A stretch of DNA of 62,869 nucleotides, the filler included, from Collodictyon triciliatum (Eukaryota), in assembly GCA_043381765.1 (NCBI GenBank). It is 9 parts of 9 records of this genome, joined end to end, with 100 filler letters (N's around TTAATTAATTAA, not from the genome) between each part and the next. Parts side by side here need not be neighbours in the genome. Positions count along the whole stretch, not along the records: positions 1 to 7,171 come from JBHJMP010004029.1; 8 more parts are not named here. One strand, 5' to 3'. Each line of letters starts with the position of its first letter. Within the stretch, counting starts at the first letter, position 1. The notes beneath the pieces are model-generated. The model did no database searches, was not told where the DNA came from, and saw nothing but the letters and a program-made list of their open reading frames with translations. The position numbers and the translations under genes are program-made. Of this stretch, positions 1-58,064 are shown in pieces.

Positions 1-180
1 GAGAGAGAAAGAGAGAGAAAGAGAGAGAAAGAGAGAGAAAGAGAGAGAAAGAGAGAGAAAGAGAGAGAAAGAGAGAGAAAGAGAGAGAAAGAGAGAAAGG
101 GAGAAAAAGAGAAAAAGAGAAAAAGAGAAAAAGAGAAAAAGAGAAAAAGAGAAAAAGAGAAAGAGAGAAAGAGAGAAAGA
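1..180. repeat. (GAGAGAGAAA)n / (GAGAAAAA)n purine microsatellite at scaffold end
   Basis: Directly visible tandem units. Confidence 0.95.
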
Positions 181-731
181 GCCGTTCATTTTCCCTAGGG
201 CTCTCGTGTATTGCCATGCATAATCTAGTGTCTTACACCTAGAAACTGGCAAACATATGTGCCTTCTGCAGTCATTACACCGGAGCACTCGATTCGCATC
301 GCACCCCAGCTTTTTTCAGCTTTCTAGTTCCTTTAAGGGCATTAAGCACAAGGCCCAGTTTGTTTTTAAAATGACTTGTTCCAGATATCACAACCATACT
401 ATGAAAATCTCAGTGAAGGACCAACCCAATATTTTTTTTTGGCGGACAAGACCCCACACCTTACATTGATTGGAAAGAGGATTTTTTTCTATCAACATCT
501 CACGTGTATTGGCTAATCTTTCAAGAGTATCATGTCCAATACTCATGTATCCCGCTGAGTGTCACTTTCTATAAAACAATAGAAACGATGGGATGGAAAC
601 TCTGGACGCCATCCAGGAAAATGACATTGTTTCTTTTCGTATTCAATCCGGGGGTCAACCGTGCTCGAAAGGCGACGGTAAAATGAGGTAACCGGGGATG
701 TTTTTCTCATATCAAATTTATATGGTCCCTG

Positions 732-3700
732 TTATTCCTCGGACGTATAAAATTGCTCTTTTCCTTCTACTTGAATCCCACTTTCAAGAAGAGCCATCAC
801 CCCGGTCGACGTAATCGGCGTACAACCCCACAGGGTCACTTTCTGGACTCGTTTGCAATTTTTCGAAATATAAACCATATGTTCATCGTGGAGAGCACGG
901 CACCAAGAAAAATCTAGCTCGCGCATTTCAGTTCCATATTTGCAAATGTCTAACACTATATCTCCTGTTATGTTTGTTCCGCTAATCTTCAATTCTTCCA
1001 GGGTTGCGATGCTGACTAGGTTGCGCTAAAAATAATAATAACAATAATTAAATTCGAAATAAGATGATAATGGTCTTCTGTTTCATTTTTCTATCACATG
1101 TATTAATTTTTGTTCCTTAATTAAAAAAATAAACAGCGCATGAATAAATAGTCTATGTTGGACGTTGCAATACAATGGATTCGTCTTTAACAGCTTCGCA
1201 GCGATTGATATTCAGCTTGCGGATATTTAAGCAATTGTTTGCAATCAAACCAACTATATTGTCATCCACGCATGTCATCTATATTTGCAGAGGGTAATTT
1301 CTTTGAGATGTAATAAATTTGTGAATAAAAGTACGCTTTTTTGATAGTATTGCTCGAGTACACAACTGTTTCTTTGTTTTTGGTAAGAATAAAACCTTTT
1401 CCAGACACAGATGTATAATCCCCGGTAGATTTTCTAACATTTTTTTCAATCCAGCAGTGGTTATTTTGTTATTCTTTATAAAAGAAAAGTGCAGCAAAGT
1501 TGTATTTGGTGTCGCAAACAACATCTTCGCCCCATCATCGGAAACCATAAGGGCAGCTTATGTAAATTATAGATGAGATCATAAAAAGGTGGTATTAAAC
1601 AGCTATGATTCCATATACTAGCAAAAGTAGAAAACTTTAGAAATATTCGGTTATATGCACCTTCGATATGGAGATGTATCAGTGACTTGATTCTTCCAAC
1701 CACCCCCATGGACTCGTCACTCAAGGCTTCAGGACATTCGTTGAGGAAAAGATACTCTACAGATGGACAACTTTCCAGCAATGCCACTAGTGTTCCCATC
1801 GTGATAAGATTCATCCATTCCATTTTCAATGACCGAAGGTTGGGTCGACTTCGAAGAAACGGAATCATAGACCTGTAGGTCTATATTGTCAGAAAATGAC
1901 ATAGTTCAACCTCCCAATATCCTTTGAGGGGGTGGGTTAGTAATTTAATTATATTTCTTCTCTCTCTGGGTAATGACTAATATATTGCAAGTTCACGAAC
2001 CTGTCCGAAACTAAGTACGCTCCGTGAAGGGAAATCTCAGTTATGAGCGGACAGCCATCAGAAATCATTGAAAAGACGTGATCTGTCATGAATCCACACT
2101 GAGACAACTCTAGTCTCATTAGAGATTGGCATGTCGATATTGAGGAAAGTGACGCTCCATCTAAATCTTATGAATTGTATTGAGTTAGCATTTCAGTCTG
2201 TTCTTTTGAACTCGATTTTTTTTATATAGAATGAGAAGTTTCCATAAGCACAAGTACCAGAGCAACAAAGGAGCTGTAAGTTGGTAAGTTCATCCGATAG
2301 GAAGAGACCCAAAGATTCTGAGTTCAGTCTTCTTTGCCTACGATAATGTATTCAAATGGGTCTATAGTAGGCAATTGTTGGCACTATGTCGAATGATCAG
2401 TAAATGCTTCTAATTTATCAAAGATAATTTCTGCCATATAACGCCTTAAACCTCGCTAATTCGGTTGCTATCAGTTTTTTTACGTCCGGAGGAACACACC
2501 CGAATGATTCAACACAGTCGATGAAATTTGCAACTGTCCTTGCGCATAGAATTTGAAGAGACGGTACTTGTTTTTTCATCTTCTTTCGATTCTGGATGTT
2601 GGTTTTCCTTTTGGGTGCGAGAGAACCTTCTACCTGTCAGTGATAAATGAACTAGGTAAGCAATATGATTTTTTTTTTAGTTTGGTTTGTTTGTTTGTTG
2701 GTCTATTACTTGTAGGTCTGCGAAAAGTTGTATTTTTTGGAATATTAGAAATAGCCCGGTATAGTGATATTTAATACATGGATGGTTTGTTACCCTTTTT
2801 TCAAACTTCTGAGACTCATAGATAGAAGAAAGAGCCTTCGCATTAGCCTTGTTGGCCAAATGAGAGGGACGTGCAAAGGCAGCGACATCATGCCATTTCT
2901 CTGAGAACCGGGGGGCAGGAACATCCTTCAGTATTCAACAGTTATCTCGATGTTATGTATGTATGTATGTATGTATGTATGTATGTATGTATGTATGTAT
3001 GTATGTATGTATGTATGTATGTATGTGTATGATACAGGCATTTATGAATCGACAACGGGGGGTTTAAAGGAAAGAAAAATAGGCAAAATCTAGGTACATA
3101 AATGTCTACCAGCATTTATTTTCCTATTTCTTTCTTTTTTAGATGCTTAAAAATTCCCAAAAATCCGACGTAATTAGAGTGTTTATTTCTCCATTTGTCA
3201 CACATCACTTCGGCTAGCAGGATAAGCATATGGAAGACTTACATCAGGCAGAGGGACGATTTCACCTTCTTCCAAGTCATGATTGTCCAGGTCATCCACC
3301 CCGCCAACGTTATGGAGCCCTGTGGACATGCTGCTGTCGCTATCATCGCCGGAGGCCTGAGCCGGCTCTCCACCTACTAGTCCGTAATGCGGGAGGAATG
3401 TAGGGGCTCTCTTTTTCTTTTCTTTTGAACGCTTGCGTCTACGTTTGGAAACTCGCTGTATGCGTACCTCTTGTGGGCGCATAGGTCGAGACTCGGACCG
3501 TTCATCTCGTCGGCCTTCGCCGCGGCGGTCTTTTGCTGGATGCTGCTTGGACTCTGGTGCTTTTGCCTTTGACGTATGCAATACAGAACGCGCTTCTTGG
3601 GCTTCGGCGACATGGGGCATCCCTGTCTGTGATATAGATTTCTTGTTTGCCTCTGCTTTTTTACGCGAAAGGTTGTCGGGTAATGGGGACTGCGCAGGTG

Positions 3701-4026
3701 GATTTTGAGCTGCTCTTTTTTTCGACGCATGGGGTTTGGAGTCGCCGGAAACTGAGTCTTCAAAGTCTTCCATCCAGTCACTGTGGAAGGAATCGTCTTC
3801 AGAGGAAGAGGACGATGACGAGTCGAGTACGATGGGTTCGCTATGGTCATTGTCCGTGTCCTCCAGAGTCACAGTTTTTCTGTGCAGGGCGAGGGAGAAC
3901 CAATGGCGGGAATAAGAAAAAAAGAAAAAAGAAAAAAGAGAAAAGAAAAGGAGAAAAGAAAAAAGAAAAAAATAAAAAAGACCACATGGTTATTACCGAC
4001 CTTAGCCTCCGTCCTTTGCTGGCCAT
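732..4026 (-). CDS. RAD7: Rad7-like (RNI-type LRR, BC-box) nucleotide-excision-repair protein, multi-exon
   Basis: Manual GT-AG splicing gives a low-complexity N-terminus (probable start MASKGRRL at 4026). It is followed by VPSLQILCARTVANFIDCVESFGCVPPDVKKLIATELARQRRLNSESLGLFL (BC-box/Rad7 signature), HGAYLVSD and Cys-containing LRRs ending ELDFSWCR...VTLWGC...*. Stop TAA at 732-734. Confidence 0.75.
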
Positions 4027-4420
4027 CCTTAGGGTGAATATGGATTAGTAAAGAGTATGCTTGTTACTTGTGCCGTTTTAATATTTCAAGTCTCCACCCG
4101 CCCCTTGGCTCTGCACTTGGCTCGCTCGCGTCTGTTCTGCTTTGCGTTATATCGATAGCAATTCCGGTCGCAGAAAGTCGGCAGCCTGATCACATTTATA
4201 CTTTCGGCCAGCCGCGATTGGCCTTCTTGTATGGGTAAATCCCACAATTTGCAATCAAGAAATATATTATAGATTTGTTTGCTTGTAAATATGTCAGAAT
4301 GTTCGAGCCCAGGTCAGAATTTTTTTTTCTAAGCGCCGTGAAAAAGTGTGGTGATCGCACTGACTGAGAGATGTACTTTAGGGGAACAATAAGAAAAAAC
4401 ACAATAATGAAGAAAAAGTC

Positions 4421-4483
<63 letters not shown>

Positions 4484-5776
4484 TTGATAAACAAGCACAC
4501 TAGCAGAGAAAATAGACACATTCCCAGAAAATAATATTATTACACTGGCGTTCTTTCCTTCTTCTCCCAACCCGCCATATTCTGAAGCGAAAAAAAAAAC
4601 GTGCAATTGATCCCGAGAAGGACGAAGCCGCCCTGCGCAATGGAATGCCTACTGATCGTACGCAAACCGGGAGGCCGACGCAGCCAACGCAGAGAGCGAA
4701 AAGGTCACTTGACCACATCCCTTTACCACACAGGTTATGCACCGAGACACGCCGACGATCCAGATGCCAGCTGCCACCGACCTGGGGTACAACAAACTAC
4801 TAGCAAGACGGAGCGAGCTCTTTGAAACGAATAATAAAGGGATAGAAAATAAAAGACGGATGGAACTCTAGCCATCGACCCACGGGCAGCAAGATAAGTA
4901 TGAACAAAATGTTCAGTATTAGTTGCTCTGATTCATCTTTTTTTCTTTTTCTTTTTTTTCTTTTGTTCTTTTGTTCTTTTGTTCTTTTGTTCTTTTGTTC
5001 TTTTGTTCTTTTGTTCTTTTGTTCTTTTGTTCTTTTCTTTTCTTCTTTTTCGGCCTCTTTCAGCCTGTAAATGGATTAACTTCATTACAAAGGTTGCGAC
5101 AAACTTGGTTTTATCTCTTTCAAGCCACAACACTTTCTTATGCAACGAAAGCGTACTTATATATAGCAGTTTATTGCACAGCCAGCCATCGAATTAAATC
5201 CGGATTGACAAAAGCAGAAGCTTTGATGAATCCAAGAAAGCATCCTGAATAATATAATAGTATGATTAGTATATATAATAAGGTTAAAATACTGCAATAA
5301 TCTCACTCTATTCCTGTAATCAATTCATATTTTACATTCTATCATGTAATTATTGTTTCGGATTAAAATTCAAAAATGACAAACAAGCCCTTGCCTTGGC
5401 CCAGACAGAACCCACCCTATAAACCTGCCACCAAACATGCATTTCAAAAAAGTATACTATCCACACTTGCGGCGGTAATCACGTTGTTTGGAGCCGATAT
5501 GTTGACTTTCAGACGCAATGGCTATACAACCATCTTTTCGAACTCGCCGAATCAGTTCTCAGCGATTCGTCTCAAATCACCTATAAAAATTTTGGAGTGT
5601 TTGATTGCCACAATGTGCACATTTTGAAAGTCTTGGTAGATGCTTAATTTTACATAGTTGATTTTATGCAGTTTTTTTTTTTTATTTATTTATTAAATTG
5701 ACTAATTGACTAAAGTTTTACTAAAATTGAAAACTCGGTGGTTTTCTAAAGGAAAAAGTAAAACAAAGACTTTCAC

Positions 5777-7012
5777 ATGAAGAAAAGAAAACATATTGAG
5801 TTTGAGAATCTTAAGTCTGTAAAACCACCATCGAAATGTGAAAGCATCTCTAAAGTCGGTTGTAAAGAATTTGGATTACGATTACAAAGTCAACAATACG
5901 GTTTTATTGTGTCATAAATTGGTTACTGACACTTATCTGTTTGCATGATGCTACATATTGAAATCACAACTCCCAATAATCGATGAAAAGTTTTTTGTAC
6001 ACTTTAAAGACAGTCGGCGTAGTTTCACAAGATAGACCCGCAAGTTTTTTTTTTTTTTTTAAAAAAAACCAGATATGAGAGAAGACATGATGACTTTTTA
6101 TCTCAATGATTTTCGATTCCTTTTGTCCCGAGAAGAACACTTTCCGTTGGTCGGACCGTCTCATGTATTACCGTACTTGGAGAAGCAAATGTTAACAGCT
6201 TATCACTATAACATTAAGCAGGATTCTGTAAAGAGGTTACTGCGCTTTATAAATCAAGCATTTCCTAAAGATGAGAATATTACGGAAGCTATTAAAAAAA
6301 AAAAAAGGCAGAGTCACGAAAGTTAAAAAAGAAGCCATCTTCAAGAATCTCGAAATACCGGAATAATATAAAGAATGGATTAAAAAGCATTTATATCATA
6401 TCATTCCCAGCGATATTGTAAATGGTATCGAATATGGCGTCAAAGCCAATCCAAACAAGTACATTCCATGTCTGATTTACATGAATCGCATTTTTGAAGA
6501 CAATGGAGCCAAACTGTTTCAACCAATCCCTATAAGAACTAACAATACACCATGTCATATTACTCTAGGTACTACATGTTTGATAGATATATTAGTATTG
6601 TCTGAAAAAAATTATTAAAGACGAATATATCAGGATGCAGACCGACCTTATGGGATGATTTCTCTGAAATGAAGAAGAGGGTCTTTCATCAAACAGACTA
6701 CAATTTTAAATACATGATACAAACAGACGGCTTGGCGGTGTGATTATTGTTTGAAAAGAAAGGTATTTCAAATTCAAAATCCAAATATAATCAAAAAACC
6801 CCCAAGAGTATGTTTATATAGATGAACTTTCCGAAGAGCAGTTATCTTTATTAGCGAAAAAAAATATAGTTGGACTGGGCGCAGGCAAGTTTAATTTGGT
6901 TTACATGGTGGATGAGACAGGTAAGAAATTATGTTATACAGCACACCAAAGAAGACATGACAGCAAATCTCTTAAAAATCGAAATAAACTCTTGCACGAG
7001 AAAGAGAAGTAC
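5777..7012 (+). pseudogene. Decayed, 3'-truncated Fanzor1-like (TnpB-related) nuclease ORF, transposon relic
   Basis: Joining frames across frameshifts and stops gives VKASLKSVVKN...VNNTVLLCHKLVTDTYLFA*CYIL...LPIIDEKF; LPYLEKQMLTAYHYNIKQDSVKRLLRFIN; YGVKANPNKYIPCLIYMNRIFEDNGAKLFQPIPIRTNNTPCHITLGTTCLIDI; DYNFKYMIQTDGLAV*LLF; YIDELS...NIVGLGAGKFNLVYMVD...LCYTAHQRRHDSK. This matches the Fanzor1 motif order as I recall it, up to RuvC-I (VGxDPG). No introns. Confidence 0.8.
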
Positions 7013-7171
7013 GTTGCTTCTGGGATATGTATGGCAACAGGTTTACAAAGTGCTGTTTCTTTTAGTCCAGGACTTTTGAAGAGAATCAGCAGTTTGAGAC
7101 ATCAAGAGCATCTTTAATCGATTTAGACATAATTGAGTAAACATAATTCATGCACGGTCGATTATGAAAAA

Positions 7172-7271
7172 NNNNNNNNNNNNNNNNNNNNNNNNNNNNN
7201 NNNNNNNNNNNNNNNTTAATTAATTAANNNNNNNNNNNNNNNNNNNNNNNNNNNNNNNNNNNNNNNNNNNN
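7172..7271. other. Artificial scaffold spacer N44-TTAATTAATTAA-N44; other linkers at 14475, 21737, 28999, 36253, 43508, 50760, 58005
   Basis: The same 12-mer (stops in all six frames) sits inside N runs, eight times, at ~7.25-kb spacing. Confidence 0.97.
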
Positions 7272-7391
7272 GAAGTTGTATTTGAAGTTGTATTTGAAGT
7301 TGTATTTGAAGTTGTATTTGAAGTTGTATTTGAAGTTGTATTTGAAGTTGTATTTGAAGTTGTATTTGAAGCTGTATTTGAAGTTGTATTT
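7272..7391. repeat. 12-bp tandem repeat (GAAGTTGTATTT)x~10
   Basis: Directly visible; one unit has GCT in place of GTT. Confidence 0.95.
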
Positions 7392-14152: not shown

Positions 14153-14530
14153 CTGTTTTGCCAATAGAAAGAAGAAAAGTATTAAGTATACCTACTAATT
14201 CGGTAAAAATAAAATTATAACACATATTTTTTAATTAACAGCAGCAATCTGCTCCCATCTCGTCTTTTTCCATTTTCTTTTTTCTTTTTTCTTTTTTACT
14301 TTTTTACTTTTTTACTTTTTTACTTTTTTACTTTTTTACTTTTTTACTTTTTTACTTTTTTACTTTTTTACTTTTTTACTTTTTTACTTTTTTACTTTTT
14401 TACTTTTTTACTTTTTTACTTTTTTACTTTNNNNNNNNNNNNNNNNNNNNNNNNNNNNNNNNNNNNNNNNNNNNTTAATTAATTAANNNNNNNNNNNNNN
14501 NNNNNNNNNNNNNNNNNNNNNNNNNNNNNN

Positions 14531-17800: not shown

Positions 17801-19045
17801 TTTATTTTTTAAGAAAATATTTGCTTACATTCACTATATTATCAACCGATATGGAATCTACAAAACCAATATTGGATGCATTCTGAATAACTCTTCGGGC
17901 TCTTTCAGCAAAATCAATTTCGTGAAGGGCAGATAAGTTGCAAATATCAGGGCGAATACTGTGAAGTAGGTAAGTGTACACAAGGGAATCCTGAATTAAG
18001 GGTTAATAATAATTTTTTTTAAAGACCATTTATTCCAACACAAAACTGTGGACAGTTGAACAAAAAACATAATCGATATCATACTCTCAGGTCTGATGAA
18101 AAGTTTTCAATTTTTTTCGGCTGCTTCATTTTTTCCAGATGGAAATTGACCCATCTCATAATCAACTTGTCTGGAGGAATCCCAAACAACTCGTCCAGAG
18201 TTTCTCTTCCTAACAAAATCGTAATCCAACGAGATTAGCTGGAGAAAGACAATAAACACATTTCATAATCTTCCACAAGCCCACCTTGCAGTAATGAGCT
18301 TATATTATGCGTTTCTGCTTGACTCGCACGGGTCATGGCACGGATGAATTCTTTTGTTACAGGCTCTGACTAAGTGATTTAGGAATGCAAGACTCAAATA
18401 ACCATCTTCCAACAGTACTTTGAAAATAACTTCACATGAGAGTCGCAATAATTTCATAAAAATTTAAAAGGAAAATCGAACCAATTGTGCTCCAAATCGC
18501 ATATATACAGAATTTGCGCTTTTTTCGGCCTTTATCTCTACGGAGAAAAAAAAAGTACAAAAATAAACGAATTATGCATTTCTGGATAACATTTTCGTGT
18601 TTTCTTTTTGCCCTATCAAATATGGAATACGAGGCAAATTACTTTCTTTCATTAAGAAATCGTTGTATTTCTTTTGCTCTTGGGCCTCTGTGAGTTCGTC
18701 CTGTAGATGAATTTAAGATACAAAGAATGAGATTATATTAAATTTTTTTTATTCTTTCAATTTTGTGTAGGTTGGTGGAGATGTTGGCTTTGGTTCGAAT
18801 AAGATTCTAGTACATTTTTGGTAATAACCTTATTGCAAATGAGTAGGTAGAGAGTGAGAGTGAGGAATTGAGTGATTGAGAGAAAGAGATATTAAGAGAA
18901 AGAAGGAAAGAAAATGAGGGATGAAACCTCCAAAGAACGCAACTTTGTCGACAATTGCTCACAATGAGCCTCTAATTGCGCGGTTGTTAACTGCAAGTCA
19001 TACAGGTCGCTCCTAAAGTTCAAGTCGATCATCATAAAATATTAA

Positions 19046-21691: not shown

Positions 21692-21792
21692 GNNNNNNNN
21701 NNNNNNNNNNNNNNNNNNNNNNNNNNNNNNNNNNNNTTAATTAATTAANNNNNNNNNNNNNNNNNNNNNNNNNNNNNNNNNNNNNNNNNNNN

Positions 21793-26774: not shown

Positions 26775-28637
26775 TTATGTGAGCTTGGCCTCTTCGATGA
26801 TGCACATTGCAGCCTTCAAATGAACCTTCTTAAACTCTGGAACAAGGTCCTGGAGGCTTTCCACTTCAAGAAGAACAAACTCACGCCCCCTGAGGCTATT
26901 ATCGACGCACGCCTGAATCAGTTTCGGGTGTGCCTCCTTTCGCTCCAGATAGGCGACAAGCTCGGCAGTTGTCAAGTCTTTGACAGATTTGGCAGCCGAC
27001 ACTGAAGCTGAGACTGCGACTGGGTTTGTGATGATGGCATTAAGCTCGTCCTCGACCTGTTGGGCAGTGATGCGTGTCTCATAGGTTCTCTCCCAGCACT
27101 TGCGAACTAGAGCTGCAAGGTTAGCAGGACAAGTAGAGGGAAGAGGTGGGGTTTTGCCGTTAATCACAGACGAGCCGACCTGGCCGTCGTTCATACCCTC
27201 ATAGGGATACTCACCACTCAGCATGGACCAGAGAACCACGCCGTACGAGTAGACGTCACTGGGCAGCCCCATACTTTTACCAATCTCAAAGGCCTCGGGC
27301 GGCGACCAGTTCTTGGAGCCACCAAACTTGCTAACTGAGTTGACGGATGCACCGCTCTTTGCAAGGCCGAAGTCGGTCAGCTTGGCGATGCCGTTCACAA
27401 GGAGGACGTTCTCGGTCTTGAGGTCGCGGTGCTGGATGGGCCTTGGCTGCGTGTGCAGGTAGACGAGGCCCTGGATGATATGCAACCCGTATTTCAGGGT
27501 CAGGTGGTTTCCCAGTGCTCTATGCCTCTTGATGAGTGAGCAGAGTTCCCCGCCGTCCGCAAACTCCATGACAAAGAGCAGGTCCCTGCCTCGGAAGCCA
27601 AAGTCGTGGAGCGTCAGGATGTTTGGGTGCTGCAGCTCGAGCATCATGCTGCCCTCCTTTTCGGGGCCGGAGCCATCCGCAGCCGTAAGAAGAGACGCAT
27701 CACTAATCTTCTTCACGGCAAAGAGGCCCGCTCTCAGCTGAACCTTGAAGACCAGACCGAAGCCGCCCTTGCCCAGGATGTTTTCTTTCTTCTCAAAGTC
27801 CGTGGTCAGAAGGTCCGCGTACTTGCCACGAGCCAGGCGGCTGGTTGGCGCTGTGTTGGTTTTGCGATGATAGGTCAGGAATGCATGTAAAAGTTTTTCT
27901 TCTGATAGTTGGTGGAATTACATGAAGTAGAAGTTCTATGGGCTTCATCGACTGTGCCGACGACCTAGATAGAATGTATTTTTTTTTTGACATGCGTTAT
28001 CTGGAGGTTTGAAGTGGTTGTTACCTTATGTAAATGTATACGATAGTAAGTATTGCCTACATGCTCGTACAACTGCAGAGAGCGAATGCGGTGATACTCG
28101 TCGCTTCCTGTGTTATCCCAGCACGGCAGATCCATGATACCACACGGCGCCCTTTTTATGGTCTGGACGGCCTCGCCACCCTTGATGTAAATCTCCTCCA
28201 GATTCCTGAGCGCAGCAATCTGTAGCGGTAGTTCCTCCATCTACACAAACACACATTAGAAGTTGGCGAGCTCCTCCACCAATATGAATCGATAATGTGG
28301 AGCAGTGTATAAAATCGAGAGATACCGGGTTGTTTTCGACACTGAGCAGTCTGAGATTAATCAAGTGCGATATTTCTGGTGGGAGCGATGAAAGCCTGTT
28401 GCAGTGAAGCTCCAGCTCTATGAGATCAGTCAAGTGCGATATTTCTGGCGGGAGCGATGTCAGCTGATTGAAGCGGAGATCCAGGTATTGCAAACGGTTC
28501 AACAAAAAAACGCCACGAGGTACAGCTGTCAGATTCTTGCCTCGGAGATCGAGTCTCGTGGCGCTTTTTAAAGAAAAGATGTCGATAAAGCCGGTGATTT
28601 CTCGAAGCTCCTCCAAAAGCGCAGTCTCATCGGCCAT
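26775..28637 (-). CDS. LRR - TKL-type protein kinase - SAM-like protein; exons 28637-28326, 28240-28061, 27964-27922, 27850-26775
   Basis: Phase-consistent GT-AG splicing joins LRRs (LQYLDLRFNQLTSLPPEISHL) to a kinase with GKGGFG, AVKK, HRDLKTEN, DFG and GSKNWSPPE. The C-terminus VKDLTTAELVAYL...VDNSLRGREFVLLEVESLQDL is SAM-like. Confidence 0.88.
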
Positions 28638-29101
28638 AGTGTCAGAAGCTAGGCAGAGGCAGAGGCGGGTTGGGGCGGGTTCTTTGGAGTCGTGCAAACT
28701 AGGTTGCGTGCTGGTCTGTTTCTTGCGTTTATTGGAATTGTGGCTGTGGTTGGTAAGTAGCACAGAACGAGGTGCGATCTAGAGAGCAGCGTGGATGCGC
28801 ACAGACAGAAGGTGAACGCGACGTGAATGAGTGGATGCGCACAGTAGCGGAAGAGAGAGAAAGAGAGAAAGAGAGAAAGAGAGAAAGAGAGAAAGAGAGA
28901 AAGAGAGAAAGAGAGAAAGAGAGAAAGAGAGAAAGAGAGAAAGAGAGAGAAAGANNNNNNNNNNNNNNNNNNNNNNNNNNNNNNNNNNNNNNNNNNNNTT
29001 AATTAATTAANNNNNNNNNNNNNNNNNNNNNNNNNNNNNNNNNNNNNNNNNNNNAAAAGCAAATCAAAAAAAAAAAAAAGGTGAGGTGTTGAAATCAAAA
29101 C

Positions 29102-43463: not shown

Positions 43464-44488
43464 NNNNNNNNNNNNNNNNNNNNNNNNNNNNNNNNNNNNN
43501 NNNNNNNTTAATTAATTAANNNNNNNNNNNNNNNNNNNNNNNNNNNNNNNNNNNNNNNNNNNNGTGGCGCACAACGGTGCCGCTCGTCTCATCATCCGGT
43601 CTGCTCGTCTCGACGCTGCCCATGATGTCTCTTTCTCTCCATCTCTCTTCCCGCATCGCGCAAGCTCCGTCCTCCTCCTGTTCTTTCCTCATGCTTACCC
43701 TACTTTTTTATTTCTTCTTCCTCTTATTCGTTTATCCATTGCGCGGATTGCTGTGCTTGGGTGATGTCTGTTGACGTGCTTAATTGACCGCAACCATCTC
43801 CCAGCAGCTTCACAGCAAAACAAAGTCAGTCTTTCCTAAGTCCTAACACACGAAAGCACCGCCATATAAACAAGCCGCATGAAGTCCTCATCCCAGACGC
43901 TCAACGCCCATCCGACTTGTCCACTCCCGACATTGACGCACACAGAACTTGGCAACAGCACCTACTCCTTCGTTTCATTTCCTGCTGCATCACACTGCCA
44001 CACATTAGCAATCGGGTTGATGTTAAGATACGCCTCACGCGAAAGCATGAGCTAGAAAAGCGGCCAACCAACAGAGAAGCGAGATTCTCCGAAAGGACTC
44101 CTCGTTCGGGAATTTTCTACAAATGCGGAATTTAAATATTTACCTCCAAATGCTGGCAATTTGTCCCACATACACCACTTTTGATATAAAAAAATACACA
44201 AATATTCATGACCTACTAGAATCTGGTATAATTAACCCTGCGTGTTGTTACCTCGCAAGACTGGAGAATCATGTTTGCTTCACCGTGGTTCCACACCCAA
44301 CAAAGAGATGCTCAGGCTCTGCAATTGCTATTAATGCCTGCCTCATATTTCTCTTTTCAAGTGGGATGGAACAGACAGATATGGAGAGAGACAAATCCAC
44401 AGGCGAACAAAGGAGATCCACAAATATCCGCTTGGTTCTGTCGCACATCCTTACAGACTTATCGCTCTTGCCTCAGGTTGCACTCTTC

Positions 44489-46010
44489 ATGACAACGCCA
44501 GCTGAGTTTGGAACGCTTCTTGAGCAGGTGCGGGCGATAGTAAGGGATTCGGACATAGCAACACTTCAGAACCGCACGTCATTAAGTCTAAACAGGAAAA
44601 ACCTGCGCTTTATTCCGCATGGAATCTTCCAGCTGACCAGCCTAATACGCTTGTATCTTTCTTGGAATGTGTTGTCTTCACTACCACCAGAAATATCTTG
44701 TTTGACAGGACTTACGTGGCTTTTTATACGTGACAACAATCTTTCATCGCTGCCACAAGAAATATCATGTCTGACCAACCTCAAGGAGCTTAACATAAGC
44801 AGCAATGAAGTCTCAGCTTTGCCACCAGAGATATCGAGCTTGACAAACCTCGAAGAGCTTTACCTTTATTCAAATCCTGTATGATTTTTGGACAAATTAT
44901 GAAAATAAATAACAATCATACCAATAATAAACTACAATATCACCAATAATGTTACAATCATAAAATTACGGCTTCAGTAGAAATGCTACTCACTTTTTAA
45001 AAAAAATATAGATGGAAGAACTTCCCCTCCAAATCACAATGCTGACAAATTTAAAGAAGCTTTGGATACAAAGCAGCCATAGAAAGGTGATTATCAGAGC
45101 ACCACGCGGAATTACAGCTCTTCCATGCTATTCGAATCTAGAGTATATTGACTGCGATTGTATTCGTTCACTGCAGCTGTACGAAACGGTACAAATTAAA
45201 TATTAAGTACACTTAAAAACTATACTAATACAATATGTACAGATTGAATCGGCAGTGAATCCAAGGTGGACACCATCCCAGCATCAAATCAGATTTGTGT
45301 CTCTCAGTTTGTATGGAATGAATCTAACGAAACTGCCAGAGAGTATATCCCTTTTGCAGAGCCTGACTTATCTAAATCTAGCAAGAAATAGAGTAATATG
45401 TTAATGTTACTATCTATCTATCTATTTACTTAGTTACTTATTTAATTATTATGCTGTTTACTTCGGAACTAAATTTGGTTTGCACTTTATCTTATGGTGT
45501 ACTGTCTGAATCGAAATAGCTCCACGAGCTTTCTGAACATGTTTGCTGCATTTCTTCGATTCTTTATCTAGACGTATCTCATAATAAGGTTCTATACAAT
45601 TCTTTGCGAAAAATACATCCAAATCATTTTTTCGCACATTTTGAAAGCTGCATGAGCAGATGAATCCACAAAAATCTTCTGTCACTTATATTTTTCAAGT
45701 ATATATAAAAATAGAATTGACACCTTATACCATCTTGCAAAAACTGAAAGGAAGAATAAAAATCAACAGAAGACTCAAGATTATCATTTTTGTGACGTAG
45801 ATTGCTATAATCCCTGAGACTGTCAACCGACTTTATAATCTTCAAAAATTGGATGTCACTTACAACTCGGTAGGATAAAATAGCAAAGTTGCTTTGGAGA
45901 AAAATCAAGAATGAATGGTTATCAAAATCAGCTTTTATGTATATTATAGTTCTTTTCAAATCATTTTGTGCTAAATAACATAGATAATCAAGCTACCAGA
46001 CTTCTCGTAG
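44489..46010 (+). CDS. LRR-only protein, paralogous at its N-terminus to the LRR-kinase; exons 44489-44878, 45012-45188, 45243-45392, 45520-45588, 45801-45869, 45984-46010
   Basis: All introns are phase-0 GT-AG. Two 69-nt single-LRR exons (LHELSEHVCCISSILYLDVSHNK; IAIIPETVNRLYNLQKLDVTYNS) are absent from the ORF track. The last exon IIKLPDFS* is tentative. Confidence 0.78.
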
Positions 46011-50541: not shown

Positions 50542-50857
50542 ATCATGAGATTCATCTGGCCTTAGAGATCCGAAAGTCTATTTTAGGTTTATTTGGCTTA
50601 TGCTTCCTGATTTTTTTTTAACATTCTATTCTTTTGTGGTTTTATATTGCGCTAGGTTCTTTTTTGTGCTTTTGCTTTTGCTTTTTGCTTTTGCTTTTTC
50701 TTTTTCTTTTTCTTCNNNNNNNNNNNNNNNNNNNNNNNNNNNNNNNNNNNNNNNNNNNNTTAATTAATTAANNNNNNNNNNNNNNNNNNNNNNNNNNNNN
50801 NNNNNNNNNNNNNNNTTTTTTGCAAGGTCCAAAATCCTTTCTCTTTGTGCCAGACTA

Positions 50858-56797
<5,940 letters not shown>

Positions 56798-58064
56798 ATT
56801 GATTTTTGCACTTATTTGACAAAGTCTTGGCCGACTCCTAATTTTATTATTATTCGTAAATATAGTTAACAAAATAGAATAATACGTGTGAGTGTTTTTC
56901 TATGAAAAAAAATCAAGCAACTTGTATGGCATAAATCTGATTCACTTGATATAGGACTTATCTCCGCCATTAACCGACGAATGGCCCATCTTTAGGTGGT
57001 CCTTACCAAATAAGATTATTGTTACAAAATGTTGCAGTTGAATGGTTTGTCATCAGGGTTAATTTGTCGTTTATTAAAATACTTTGTTTTCTGTAATTAT
57101 CATTTTGTTATTATTATTATTTTTACTATTACTATTACTATTATACGGGTCAACACTCAATGTGCAACTACCAGTTTTATGAATTTTATTGTAAGTTTAT
57201 GTTCGTATATATTGTCGTTTAAATATAATATTATTCTTACTATTCTTAGGAATTGTACTTTAGGTACACAGGCGCAGTTTTCACTCGAAAGTGCTTCGGA
57301 TGGCTGAAATGACAGAATACAAAGATTTTTTTTTTTTTGGTGTGGGTATTTGTTGTTTCACGTGAGCTAGAAAAAGGCCTTGTGATGGATAATTCACTGC
57401 TGCAGTTTTTAACAATAACAATAACAACAATAATAGTAATATTAAAGGGTAAAAATAACTAATACAATAATAACTATTAGATAAGGATAAAGCTGTTCCA
57501 GTGCGAATAAAACACCGTCATTACTTTTCTCTGAATAATTTTTCGAGACAGCTTTCATTTTAATGAAAGAGTTTGCATCAATCCATCATTTTTAGCTTCA
57601 TCTTTTACATTATTTATTTATTAATCAATTTATTTTGTTTTGAGTTGTATGTCGTGTGCCTGTGTGCCTGTGTGTCTGTGTGTCTGTGTGTCTGTGTGTT
57701 TGTTTCTTTACTTATACACTCTCTGCCATCCCCTGATTGTCCTTCGTGGCAACTGTATGGATCAATTTCGATCGAAGTTCATTGAAATTGATATTCTCAA
57801 TATGGTAAAAAAATTGATTGCCATTTGTAGCTTCATCACATAGCGATGTCCTTAAATCCAGCAAATGCATACATACATACATACATACATACATACATAC
57901 ATACATACATACATACATACATACATACATACATACATACATACATACATACATACATACNNNNNNNNNNNNNNNNNNNNNNNNNNNNNNNNNNNNNNNN
58001 NNNNTTAATTAATTAANNNNNNNNNNNNNNNNNNNNNNNNNNNNNNNNNNNNNNNNNNNNTGTA

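What the first reader, a model, noticed from the sequence alone, without database searches (positions are those of the whole stretch)
5777..7012. Hidden Fanzor1-like RNA-guided nuclease relic
Seen: an intronless, AT-rich ~1.2-kb stretch in an intron-dense genome whose broken frames join into ordered motifs KASLKS..V..CHKLVTDTYLF, YL..QMLTAY..NI....RLLRFIN, KLFQPIPIR...PCHI, FKYMIQTDG and IVGLGAGK.NLVYM.D....L.YTA.QRR. Knowledge: this motif series is typical of Fanzor1 proteins, the eukaryotic TnpB relatives carried by transposons and large DNA viruses and guided by an omegaRNA. Inference: this lineage hosts or hosted a Fanzor-bearing element family. The protein is still easily readable, so intact copies with their own TAM and omegaRNA may exist elsewhere in the genome.
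Basis: partly seen in the sequence, partly recalled or inferred. Interest (0 to 1): 0.78.

Follow-up and report, generated by a model that had tools for sequence, protein, structure and literature searches.

The report
Dead, truncated Fanzor1 nuclease gene copy
This stretch is a broken copy of the first two thirds of a Fanzor1 gene, the eukaryotic relative of bacterial TnpB RNA-guided DNA cutters; it is one dead member of a repeat family and an ordinary kind of genomic fossil.

Summary
Window 5777-7171 (+) is collinear with residues 1-462 of an intact 648-aa relative, P0151. Of 452 aligned codons, 264 are identical. A profile of 54 full-length relatives matches only the three solved Fanzor1 proteins, at E 2.5e-100 to 9.4e-90, and no Fanzor2, TnpB or Cas12 at E<=1. 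The copy is dead. It has 8 frame switches and 3 clear in-frame stops. It reads Gly (GGC 6878-6880) where the family has the RuvC-I catalytic Asp, which is SpuFz1 D383. At 6364, 6742 and 6879, all or nearly all related contigs in the two richest runs read the intact codon. The relic does not end at 7012. It runs to 7171, where the contig ends: the window is a chain of ~7.2-kb contigs joined by linkers. The C-terminal third (alternative Glu, zinc finger, RuvC-III) and any omegaRNA therefore lie outside the data. Two public runs each lay about 240 related contig pieces on the stretch, so it belongs to a multi-copy family. Giant-virus contigs carry intact relatives followed by a conserved, structured 3' block that ends at a sharp right end. 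This is a new member of a known kind, of low to moderate interest.

The parts
5777..7171 (+). Whole relic: the N-terminal ~70% of a Fanzor1 gene (start codon to just past RuvC-I), cut off by the contig end
   Evidence: Frameshift-aware alignment to P0151 residues 1-462 with 264/452 identical codons. Profile positions 6-446 of 635 are covered.
5777..5827 (+). Start codon and basic N-terminus (MKKRK...), frame 2; a frame switch follows at 5828
   Evidence: Aligns to P0151 residues 1-17. Some related contigs carry one extra base at 5828/5829. That the basic stretch is a nuclear localisation signal is inference only.
5829..6293 (+). Segment matching the N-terminal region of Fanzor1 (domain name recalled, not tested), read in frames 3, 1, 3, with switches near 5988 (beside a T6 run) and 6047 (T16/A8 run)
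   Evidence: One search gives the segments. One search gives the homopolymer runs. One search gives hmm 6-177 at 72.9 bits.
5946..5948 (+). In-frame TGA where P0151 has Arg
6298..6621 (+). Best-conserved block (YMN..LE..G.KLFQP.P.RT..P.HI..T), frame 1; the switch into it is at the A13 run 6294-6306
   Evidence: 123.5 bits to the profile. 338 database relatives. Weak direct PDB hits to the three Fanzor1 chains, E 0.034-0.2.
6364..6366 (+). In-frame TAA; the relatives read CAA (Gln)
   Evidence: P0003 has Gln here. 6364 T>C in 231/231 depth (15 contigs) of X1 and 208.5/208.5 (10 contigs) of X2.
6624..6797 (+). 'F.Y.IQTDG' block, frame 3
   Evidence: 43.4 bits. F328, T334, D335 and G336 are invariant or nearly so in alignment A1.
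6741..6743 (+). In-frame TGA; the relatives read TCA (Ser)
   Evidence: P0151 and P0001 have Ser. 6742 G>C in 261/261 depth (16 contigs) of X1 and 412/416.5 (11 contigs) of X2.
6800..7063 (+). RuvC-I block (IVGLGAGKFNLVYMVDE..YTAHQRR), frame 2
   Evidence: 64.3 bits. Aligns to P0151 residues 338-425.
6878..6880 (+). GGC (Gly) at the position of the RuvC-I catalytic Asp
   Evidence: The profile's 'iDPGk' Asp aligns to chain residue 777 of 8gkh_P, which is SpuFz1 D383 by the DPN motif and by the passage in PMC10432273 naming D383/N385. 6879 G>A (giving GAC, Asp) in 381.2/381.2 depth (18 contigs) of X1, 232.3/235.3 (12) of X2, 2/2 of X3 and 23.1/23.1 of X4.
7010..7131 (+). Subfamily-specific insert (about 31 residues) between RuvC-I and the following segment. 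It is coding, not an intron, and is itself frameshifted (switches near 7065 and 7132)
   Evidence: Present in P0151 and absent from the 8 other full-length relatives in A2. Aligned.
7133..7171 (+). Last readable residues (LSKHNSCTVDYEK), matching 'LS..NSKTV...K' of the family
   Evidence: One X3 contig runs on past 7171 for 255 letters; its first letters, read by eye, translate like the family's next residues.
7172..7271 (.). Contig joint: N44-TTAATTAATTAA-N44 linker. DNA beyond it belongs to an unrelated contig
   Evidence: Eight such linkers lie about 7.25 kb apart.
5700..5776 (+). Upstream non-coding DNA shared with the repeat family. The left end of the element is not defined
   Evidence: Related contigs cover bins 5700-5799 in all four runs. 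Only 5700-7171 was laid.

Best explanation
Window 5777-7171 (+) is a decayed, non-functional copy of a Fanzor1 gene. It runs from its own start codon to about 70% of its length and then stops because the draft contig ends. Its intact ancestor would have been an RNA-guided double-strand DNA endonuclease of the TnpB/Fanzor type, carried by a small mobile element and guided by an omegaRNA transcribed from the 3' end of the gene and the element's right end. What is shown: the homology, the breaks and the lost catalytic Asp. What is inferred from the family: the RNA-guided nuclease activity, the omegaRNA and the mobility. This copy cannot make the enzyme. It belongs to a multi-copy family, and in the two richest runs laid (X1, X2) all or nearly all related contigs keep the intact codon at the three sites checked.
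For:: the 83-aa piece has 338 relatives at E<=1e-3; the full-length relatives match only the three solved Fanzor1 proteins, best E 3.1e-31; the profile of 54 relatives matches SpuFz1, PpFz1 and GtFz1 at 2.5e-100, 1.1e-96 and 9.4e-90, and all 8 other listed sequences have E 0.29-0.97; collinear cover of profile positions 6-446 of 635, with a clean six-frame control; 8 frame switches, stops at 5946, 6364 and 6741, and 264/452 codons identical to P0151. Gly at the D383-equivalent, where 18 contigs in X1 and 12 in X2 read Asp; 238 and 243 related contig pieces in X1 and X2; the nine full-length relatives in A2 all keep D364, E555, C562, C565, C587, C590 and D604 (P0151 numbering); 35 giant-virus loci encode relatives, and 28 of the 30 examined have complete ORFs of 593-671 aa; these loci carry a conserved 3' structured block.
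Against: Pfam gives no family above its threshold for any of the five pieces or for P0151. PF07282 reaches its threshold in only 2 of 15 relatives scanned. The piece carrying RuvC-I finds nothing by itself in the PDB at E<=10 or in the word-indexed search. Five of the 8 frame switches lie at or beside homopolymer runs (5991-5996, 6045-6068, 6294-6306, 6605-6611, 6793-6803). No run holds this exact DNA (best word share 0.13), so some frameshifts could be assembly errors. For several indels only a minority of related contigs carry the frame-restoring form, for example AG after 7124 in 38.4 of 157.3 depth in X1. The C-terminal catalytic third, the omegaRNA and the element ends cannot be seen.
Confidence: 0.9

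Rival explanations
1. The gene is intact in the organism, and the breaks are errors of a draft assembly, namely homopolymer miscalls in a short 7.2-kb contig.
For: Five of 8 frame switches sit at or next to A/T/C runs of 5-16 bases. No public run holding the exact sequence was found to check against.
Against: Three in-frame stops and the Asp-to-Gly change are base substitutions, not run-length errors. Three switches (5828, 7065, 7132) are not at runs of 5 or more. The copy differs from related contigs at many other sites: one search tabulated 376 differences, of which 40 were shown.
Confidence: 0.04
2. The copy arrived as part of a giant-virus insertion rather than by transposition of a cellular element.
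For: 35 giant-virus contigs encode full-length relatives. One of the nearest Atlas clusters is 50% Nucleocytoviricota (a lead only). The relic is more AT-rich than the rest of its contig, 33.8% against 39.4% GC.
Against: The viral relatives are at most 47% identical to P0151. P0001 found no viral locus. Upstream ORF 5367-5627 matches no Pfam family and no viral hallmark was seen; the minus-strand ORFs at 732-2934, which are split into several pieces, give only weak LRR-type Pfam hits. The related contigs in X1 and X2 look like a dispersed repeat family.
Confidence: 0.1
3. The similarity is chance or reflects another TnpB-like family, such as Fanzor2, a prokaryotic TnpB contaminant or a Cas12 relative.
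For: Single pieces match the PDB Fanzor1 chains only weakly, E 0.034-0.2. Pfam is silent.
Against:: strong, collinear matches specific to Fanzor1. No Fanzor2, TnpB or Cas12 chain appears at E<=1, and LaTranC appears only at E 0.29.
Confidence: 0.01

Closest known systems
Spizellomyces punctatus Fanzor1 (SpuFz1; PDB 8GKH and others)
   Same: It is the best structural relative of the family profile, E 2.5e-100 over profile positions 7-614. The motif order is the same up to RuvC-I. S. punctatus also carries full-length and partial copies plus ORF-less 'ghost' loci (passage of PMC10432273).
   Different: The window copy has Gly at the D383 position and is frameshifted and truncated. Its subfamily has a ~31-residue insert after RuvC-I. 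The 30-nt inverted repeats and omegaRNA described for SpuFz1 cannot be looked for here.
Guillardia theta Fanzor1 and Parasitella parasitica Fanzor1 (PDB 9CER, 9CF0)
   Same: Profile matches at E 9.4e-90 and 1.1e-96. They are the top direct hits of piece 6367-6618.
   Different: Sequence identity is distant. No statement about guide or TAM can be carried over.
P0151, an intact 648-aa protein of unknown source
   Same: It is collinear from Met-1 to residue 462 and shares the subfamily insert. It keeps every catalytic and zinc residue.
   Different: It is only 58% identical to the window's reading. Its DNA and flanks could not be fetched.
Fanzor1-type ORFs on giant-virus contigs (IMG/VR loci L002-L036)
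   Same: They are full-length relatives, 28-47% identical to P0151. They show what the missing 3' part probably looked like: a conserved structured block and a sharp right end.
   Different: They are viral and more distant. Their 3' end motif has no match in the window.
Bacterial TnpB (IS200/IS605, IS607) and Fanzor2
   Same: By the literature they share the RuvC/zinc-ribbon nuclease superfamily (abstracts and passages of PMC3627910 and PMC10530073).
   Different: None is matched by the family profile at E<=1.

Membership tests
Fanzor1 | Sequence groups with Fanzor1 rather than Fanzor2, TnpB or Cas12 | tested here: met
   only Fanzor1 chains are matched, at E 2.5e-100 to 9.4e-90 for the profile. 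ties the window to the same profile. No tree was built.
Fanzor1 | RuvC-I catalytic Asp (SpuFz1 D383) | tested here: not met
   The window has GGC (Gly) at 6878-6880. The related contigs and all nine relatives in A2 have Asp. So this is a dead member, not an active one.
Fanzor1 | Alternative ('rearranged') RuvC-II Glu, C4 zinc ribbon and RuvC-III 'RD' in the C-terminal third (motif from PMC3627910; rearranged Glu from PMC10530073) | not testable with these tools
   The contig ends at 7171, at profile position 446 of 635. No C-terminal piece lies elsewhere in the window. The relatives keep E555, C562/C565/C587/C590 and D604.
Fanzor1 | An uninterrupted reading frame | tested here: not met
   8 frame switches and 3 clear in-frame stops.
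Fanzor1 | omegaRNA encoded at the 3' end of the gene and the right end of the element | not testable with these tools
   The 3' end is absent from the contig. In viral relatives a conserved block with 25 predicted pairs, 6 of them compensatory, ends at a sharp boundary. A covariance model of that block finds nothing convincing in the window; the best hit is 19.5 bits at a rough E of 0.041.
Fanzor1 | Carried by a transposon with defined ends, target-site duplication or an associated transposase | tested here: inconclusive
   No transposase domain was found in the ORFs of 1-5776 that were scanned. Repeats in the contig are low-complexity only. The right end is missing and the left end is not defined.
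Fanzor1 | Multi-copy presence in a eukaryotic or large-virus genome | tested here: met
   238 and 243 related contig pieces in X1 and X2, with up to 18 distinct contigs over one site. No whole genome is held for the window, so copies in its own assembly were not counted.

The most novel reading that the evidence does not exclude
The window's lineage, or close kin sampled in runs X1 and X2 and in freshwater and subsurface metagenomes, holds a large and fairly young Fanzor1 subfamily marked by a ~31-residue insert after RuvC-I. This subfamily would be related to elements that also move in giant viruses and that carry a conserved omegaRNA-like 3' module ending in GGTGTAAA. Intact members would then be new programmable nucleases, and the virus-host sharing would point to giant viruses as carriers of Fanzor1 between eukaryotes.
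Probability: 0.3. Interest if true: 0.45.

Novelty: new member of a known kind. Interest (0 to 1): 0.27.

Why it matters
On its own the copy matters little. Fanzor1 genes, partial copies and ORF-less remnants are already described in many eukaryotes: 26 genomes in the 2013 survey, 3,655 nucleases in the 2023 survey, and up to 122 copies in one genome (passages of PMC3627910 and PMC10530073). It is useful as a marker. It flags a lineage with an abundant Fanzor1 subfamily and gives a query (P0151 and the profile) for finding intact members. It also led to a set of giant-virus elements whose right end and 3' RNA module are well enough conserved to define. Intact members would be candidate compact genome-editing nucleases.

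Tried and rejected
**Pfam.** The five pieces gave nothing meaningful. P0151 and P0003 also gave nothing. The family named by the Atlas and by the precomputed tables (PF26935, DUF8286) gave no hit in the local Pfam scans.

**RuvC-I piece alone.** Piece 6791-7117 found no PDB hit at E<=10 and no hit in the word-indexed search of longer proteins.

**Second copy in the window.** Weak tblastn hits at 29570-29722 (E 0.49 and 3.6) are not backed by the ORFs there or by the six-frame HMM scan.

**Intron at 7009-7065.** It has GTACGT...TTTTAG ends, and two joints were seen in X1 and X2. I rejected it because the stretch aligns as coding sequence with P0151 and the related contigs read TTTTGG instead of the acceptor.

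**Metagenome and viral scans with P0001.** The metagenome scan gave one weak 31-residue match, L001. The viral scan gave none. The wide alignment A1 was too diverse to seed a viral scan, so the tighter A2 was used.

**Rfam.** There was no match in the window at gathering thresholds.

**RNA structure on 23 mixed viral loci.** RNAalifold gave 0 pairs. Only the 13-locus subfamily gave a structure. My by-eye third hairpin is not supported, with 52.9% of cells paired.

**Resemblance upstream of the relic.** Window 5655-5667 has a 13-mer identical to part of the viral 3' block. I rejected it: the covariance model gives 8.7 bits (E 7) for 5730-5843, and no match listed at E<=10 overlaps 5655-5667. 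The end motif has 0 matches with up to 2 mismatches.

**Expression.** No RNA holder was listed for the stretch. X1 and X2 are labelled RNA only by guess.

Full report
**What is there.** The window is not one piece of chromosome. Eight linkers of the form N44-TTAATTAATTAA-N44 lie about 7.25 kb apart, so it is a chain of short contigs. The contig that holds the finding is window 1-7171, and the DNA after 7271 is unrelated. No whole genome is held for the window.

**Is it more than chance?** Piece 6367-6618 (83 aa) was compared with 1.84 billion representative proteins. It found 338 at E<=1e-3 and 15 at E<=1e-10, with a best E of 8.2e-30. Many hits are 600-720 aa long, with the match at about residues 200-290. 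tblastn with the 150 listed proteins against the window gave 292 HSPs, and 291 fall in the 5-7 kb bins, which hold the relic. An HMM of the 54 hits that are 560-760 aa long scores the three forward frames at 72.9 bits (profile 6-177, nt 5823-6344), 123.5 bits (170-304, nt 6295-6780), 43.4 bits (274-338, nt 6606-6800) and 64.3 bits (346-446, nt 6728-7171). These run in order along the profile. In a six-frame scan of the whole window, nothing outside this locus scores above 6.1 bits.

**What family is it?**
- Pfam is silent on the pieces.
- Pfam is nearly silent on the relatives. PF07282 passes its threshold in 2 of 15 relatives scanned and falls below it in 2 more.
- The solved structures decide the question. 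P0010 and P0012 each match exactly three PDB sequences: the Fanzor1 proteins of Guillardia theta, Spizellomyces punctatus and Parasitella parasitica. E values run from 3.1e-31 to 2.1e-07.
- The same three are the top relevant hits of the window piece itself, but only weakly, at E 0.034-0.2.
- A profile of the 54 relatives (A1) matches them at 2.5e-100, 1.1e-96 and 9.4e-90, over profile positions 7-614 of 632 for SpuFz1. The other 8 sequences listed at E<=1 have E 0.29-0.97, and none is a Fanzor2, TnpB or Cas12 chain.

**Anatomy of the copy.** The last protein searches found P0151, an intact 648-aa relative. A frameshift-aware alignment places its residues 1-462 on window 5777-7171, with 264 of 452 aligned codons identical (58.4%). 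There are eight frame switches, near 5828, 5988, 6047, 6294, 6623, 6799, 7065 and 7132. In-frame stops lie at 5946 (TGA, Arg in P0151), 6364 (TAA) and 6741 (TGA, Ser in P0151). A fourth stop at 6616 lies at a switch and is ambiguous. P0003, a 137-aa fragment, is 77% identical (105 of 136 codons) and reads straight across the break at the A13 run.

**The stretch after 7012.** The stretch 7010-7131 looked like a short intron. It is in fact a ~31-residue insert that P0151 shares and that the eight other full-length relatives in A2 lack. The last codons before the contig end still match the family. One contig of run X3 continues beyond 7171 for 255 letters. Its first letters, read by eye, translate like the family's next residues.

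**The catalytic residue.**
- The most conserved column of the RuvC-I block, the Asp of 'DPGK', aligns with residue 777 of chain 8gkh_P.
- The 'DPN' at 777-779 corresponds to D383 and N385, which the SpuFz1 paper names as metal ligands together with E541 and D606 (passage of PMC10432273).
- The window reads GGC (Gly) there, at 6878-6880.
- The other two catalytic residues and the zinc ribbon lie beyond profile position 446, outside the contig.
- All nine proteins in A2 keep them: D364, E555, C562, C565, C587, C590 and D604 in P0151 numbering.

**Is the decay real, and is there a family?**
- No public run holds this exact DNA; the best word share is 0.13.
- Laying four runs at 85% likeness or more shows a repeat family. 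X1 and X2 lay 238 and 243 contig pieces, and two metagenome runs lay 40 and 83. Likeness classes for X1 are 24, 53, 90 and 71 pieces at 99% or more, 95-99%, 90-95% and under 90%.
- At three sites, all or nearly all related contigs in X1 and X2 differ from the window in the direction of an intact gene.
  - 6879 G>A gives GAC (Asp): 381.2 of 381.2 depth in 18 contigs of X1, and 232.3 of 235.3 in 12 contigs of X2.
  - 6364 T>C gives CAA (Gln): 231 of 231 in X1 and 208.5 of 208.5 in X2.
  - 6742 G>C gives TCA (Ser): 261 of 261 in X1 and 412 of 416.5 in X2.
- These are substitutions, so they are not homopolymer artefacts.
- For the frameshifts the picture is mixed. Five of the eight lie at or beside runs of 5-16 identical bases. 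The frame-restoring indels are seen only in part of the related contigs. Examples are one base after 5829 in 41.6 of 41.6 depth of X1 but 21.4 of 77.1 of X2, and AG after 7124 in 38.4 of 157.3 of X1. Some frameshifts may be assembly errors, or many relatives may share them.
- Contig pieces are short and their number is not a copy number. It only shows many distinct variants.
- Only 40 of 376 substitution rows and 12 of 57 indel rows were shown, so the state of 5946 in the family is unknown to me.

**How it most likely works.** Nothing here can act: the frame is broken, the RuvC-I Asp is gone, and the rest is missing. The function of the ancestor is inferred from the family. Fanzor proteins are RNA-guided DNA endonucleases guided by an omegaRNA encoded at the 3' end of the locus (abstracts and passages of PMC10432273 and PMC10530073).

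**Relatives with DNA context.** To see whether this branch fits that picture, I looked at relatives for which flanking DNA is available.
- A scan of IMG/VR with the tighter alignment A2 found 35 giant-virus loci. Full-length matches are 28-47% identical to P0151.
- Of the 30 loci examined, 28 have complete ORFs of 593-671 aa. One is cut by the contig start and one runs off the locus.
- Downstream of the stop there is a non-coding block that stays 85-100% identical between loci whose proteins are far apart.
- The block ends at ...GGTGTAAA, 46-147 nt after the stop. A simple pattern search found a match in 26 of 30 loci; one of these, in L017, was a false first match, and the real end lies 30 nt further on.
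- Beyond that point even near-identical elements (L028, L029, L032) have unrelated DNA, as expected at a transposon right end.

**RNA structure in the viral relatives.**
- On 23 mixed loci RNAalifold found no structure.
- On the 13 loci of the central subfamily it predicts 25 pairs, 6 of them with compensatory changes. They form a hairpin near the stop codon and a 12-bp helix that pairs the invariant 3' end with an upstream TTTTACA stretch.
- Counting gives 89.5% of cells paired, against 50-59% when partners are slid. The covariation score is 0.215 against 0.156 +/- 0.012, reached by 0 of 500 shuffles. The count of pairs changed on both sides (8) was reached by 12 of 500 shuffles. A third hairpin that I drew by eye failed, at 52.9% paired.
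- A covariance model of the block recovers it at the ORF 3' end in 5 of the 12 viral loci not used to build it: L005, L012, L004, L007 and L002.
- The model also finds an inverted partial copy about 400 nt upstream of the L005 ORF, which may be a left-end inverted repeat.
- In the window the model finds nothing convincing. The best hit is 19.5 bits at a rough E of 0.041, with many broken pairs, and 5730-5843 upstream of the relic scores 8.7 bits at E 7. The end motif has no match.
- So the family-level mechanism is supported in relatives but cannot be tested in this copy.

**Surroundings.**
- Upstream in the same contig, minus-strand ORFs at 732-2934 are split into several pieces and give only weak leucine-rich-repeat Pfam hits.
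- There is also a low-complexity ORF at 3198-3989 and simple repeats.
- No transposase domain was found.
- Related contigs cover at least 5700-5776 upstream of the ATG, but the left end of the element is not defined.
- The relic is 33.8% GC against 39.4% for the rest of the contig.

**Host.** The host could not be named. The Atlas puts the nearest clusters of P0001 mainly in Mucoromycota, with one cluster half Nucleocytoviricota. That tool gives leads only.

**Comparison with what is known.** Fanzor1 was defined in 2013 in 26 eukaryotic genomes and 18 large viruses. The hosts include Spizellomyces, Rhizopus, Phycomyces, Mucor and Allomyces, and the elements are carried by Mariner, Helitron, IS4-like, Sola and MuDr transposons (abstract, Table 1 and passages of PMC3627910). 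The 2023 surveys report 3,655 Fanzor nucleases and up to 122 copies per genome (passages of PMC10530073). In S. punctatus they report 19 full-length genes, partial genes and 134 ORF-less 'ghost' loci (passage of PMC10432273). A decayed partial copy is therefore an expected sight. I did not open the supplementary tables of these papers, which may already list this family.

**Verdict.** The feature is a new, dead member of a known kind. Interest is low to moderate. The more promising by-products are the abundant subfamily seen in X1 and X2, and the giant-virus elements with a well-defined right end and 3' RNA module.

Noticed in passing
window 7172-7271, 14431-14530, 21693-21792, 28955-29054, 36209-36308, 43464-43563, 50716-50815, 57961-58060: The window is a chain of ~7.2-kb contigs joined by N44-TTAATTAATTAA-N44 linkers that give stops in all six frames. 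Features on either side of a linker are not neighbours in the genome.
   Followed up: yes
L002-L032, 46-147 nt after each Fanzor1-type ORF: Giant-virus relatives share a conserved non-coding block ending sharply at GGTGTAAA, with unrelated DNA beyond it. It has 25 predicted pairs, 6 of them compensatory, and is a likely omegaRNA scaffold and right end.
   Followed up: partly
L005 1562-1617 (-), L004 1127-1173 (-): Partial inverted copies of the 3' end module lie upstream of the ORFs (28.3 bits at E 0.0012, and 19.3 bits at E 0.08). They may be left-end inverted repeats of the viral elements.
   Followed up: no
L002-L032, 150 nt upstream of each ORF start: A short motif (GCGTTAAAA... or AAAACTACTTAAAGATTATTTTCT) recurs just before the ATG. 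In many loci 200-600 nt of upstream sequence is 65-75% alike, which may be a second conserved ORF. L025 has four tandem ~26-nt copies of the motif.
   Followed up: no
window 7272-7390: A tandem array of a 12-nt unit (GAAGTTGTATTT) sits at the start of the next contig, ahead of a 183-aa minus-strand ORF.
   Followed up: no
window 26775-27917 (-), 28113-28778 (-), 44051-44884 (+), 52677-54032 (-): There is a protein-kinase ORF (Pkinase, E 3.1e-47) with a leucine-rich-repeat ORF just upstream of it on the same strand, and two more LRR ORFs on other contigs. LRR and kinase genes seem common in this genome.
   Followed up: no
window 41162-42901 (+): A 579-aa open frame with no Pfam match.
   Followed up: no
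window 18513-18637 (-): This is the best window hit of the viral 3' RNA model (19.5 bits, rough E 0.041). It has many non-standard pairs and is probably chance.
   Followed up: partly
window 1-320, 3900-3990, 4380-4480, 4920-5060: Long purine/pyrimidine and trinucleotide low-complexity arrays flank the genes of the first contig.
   Followed up: no
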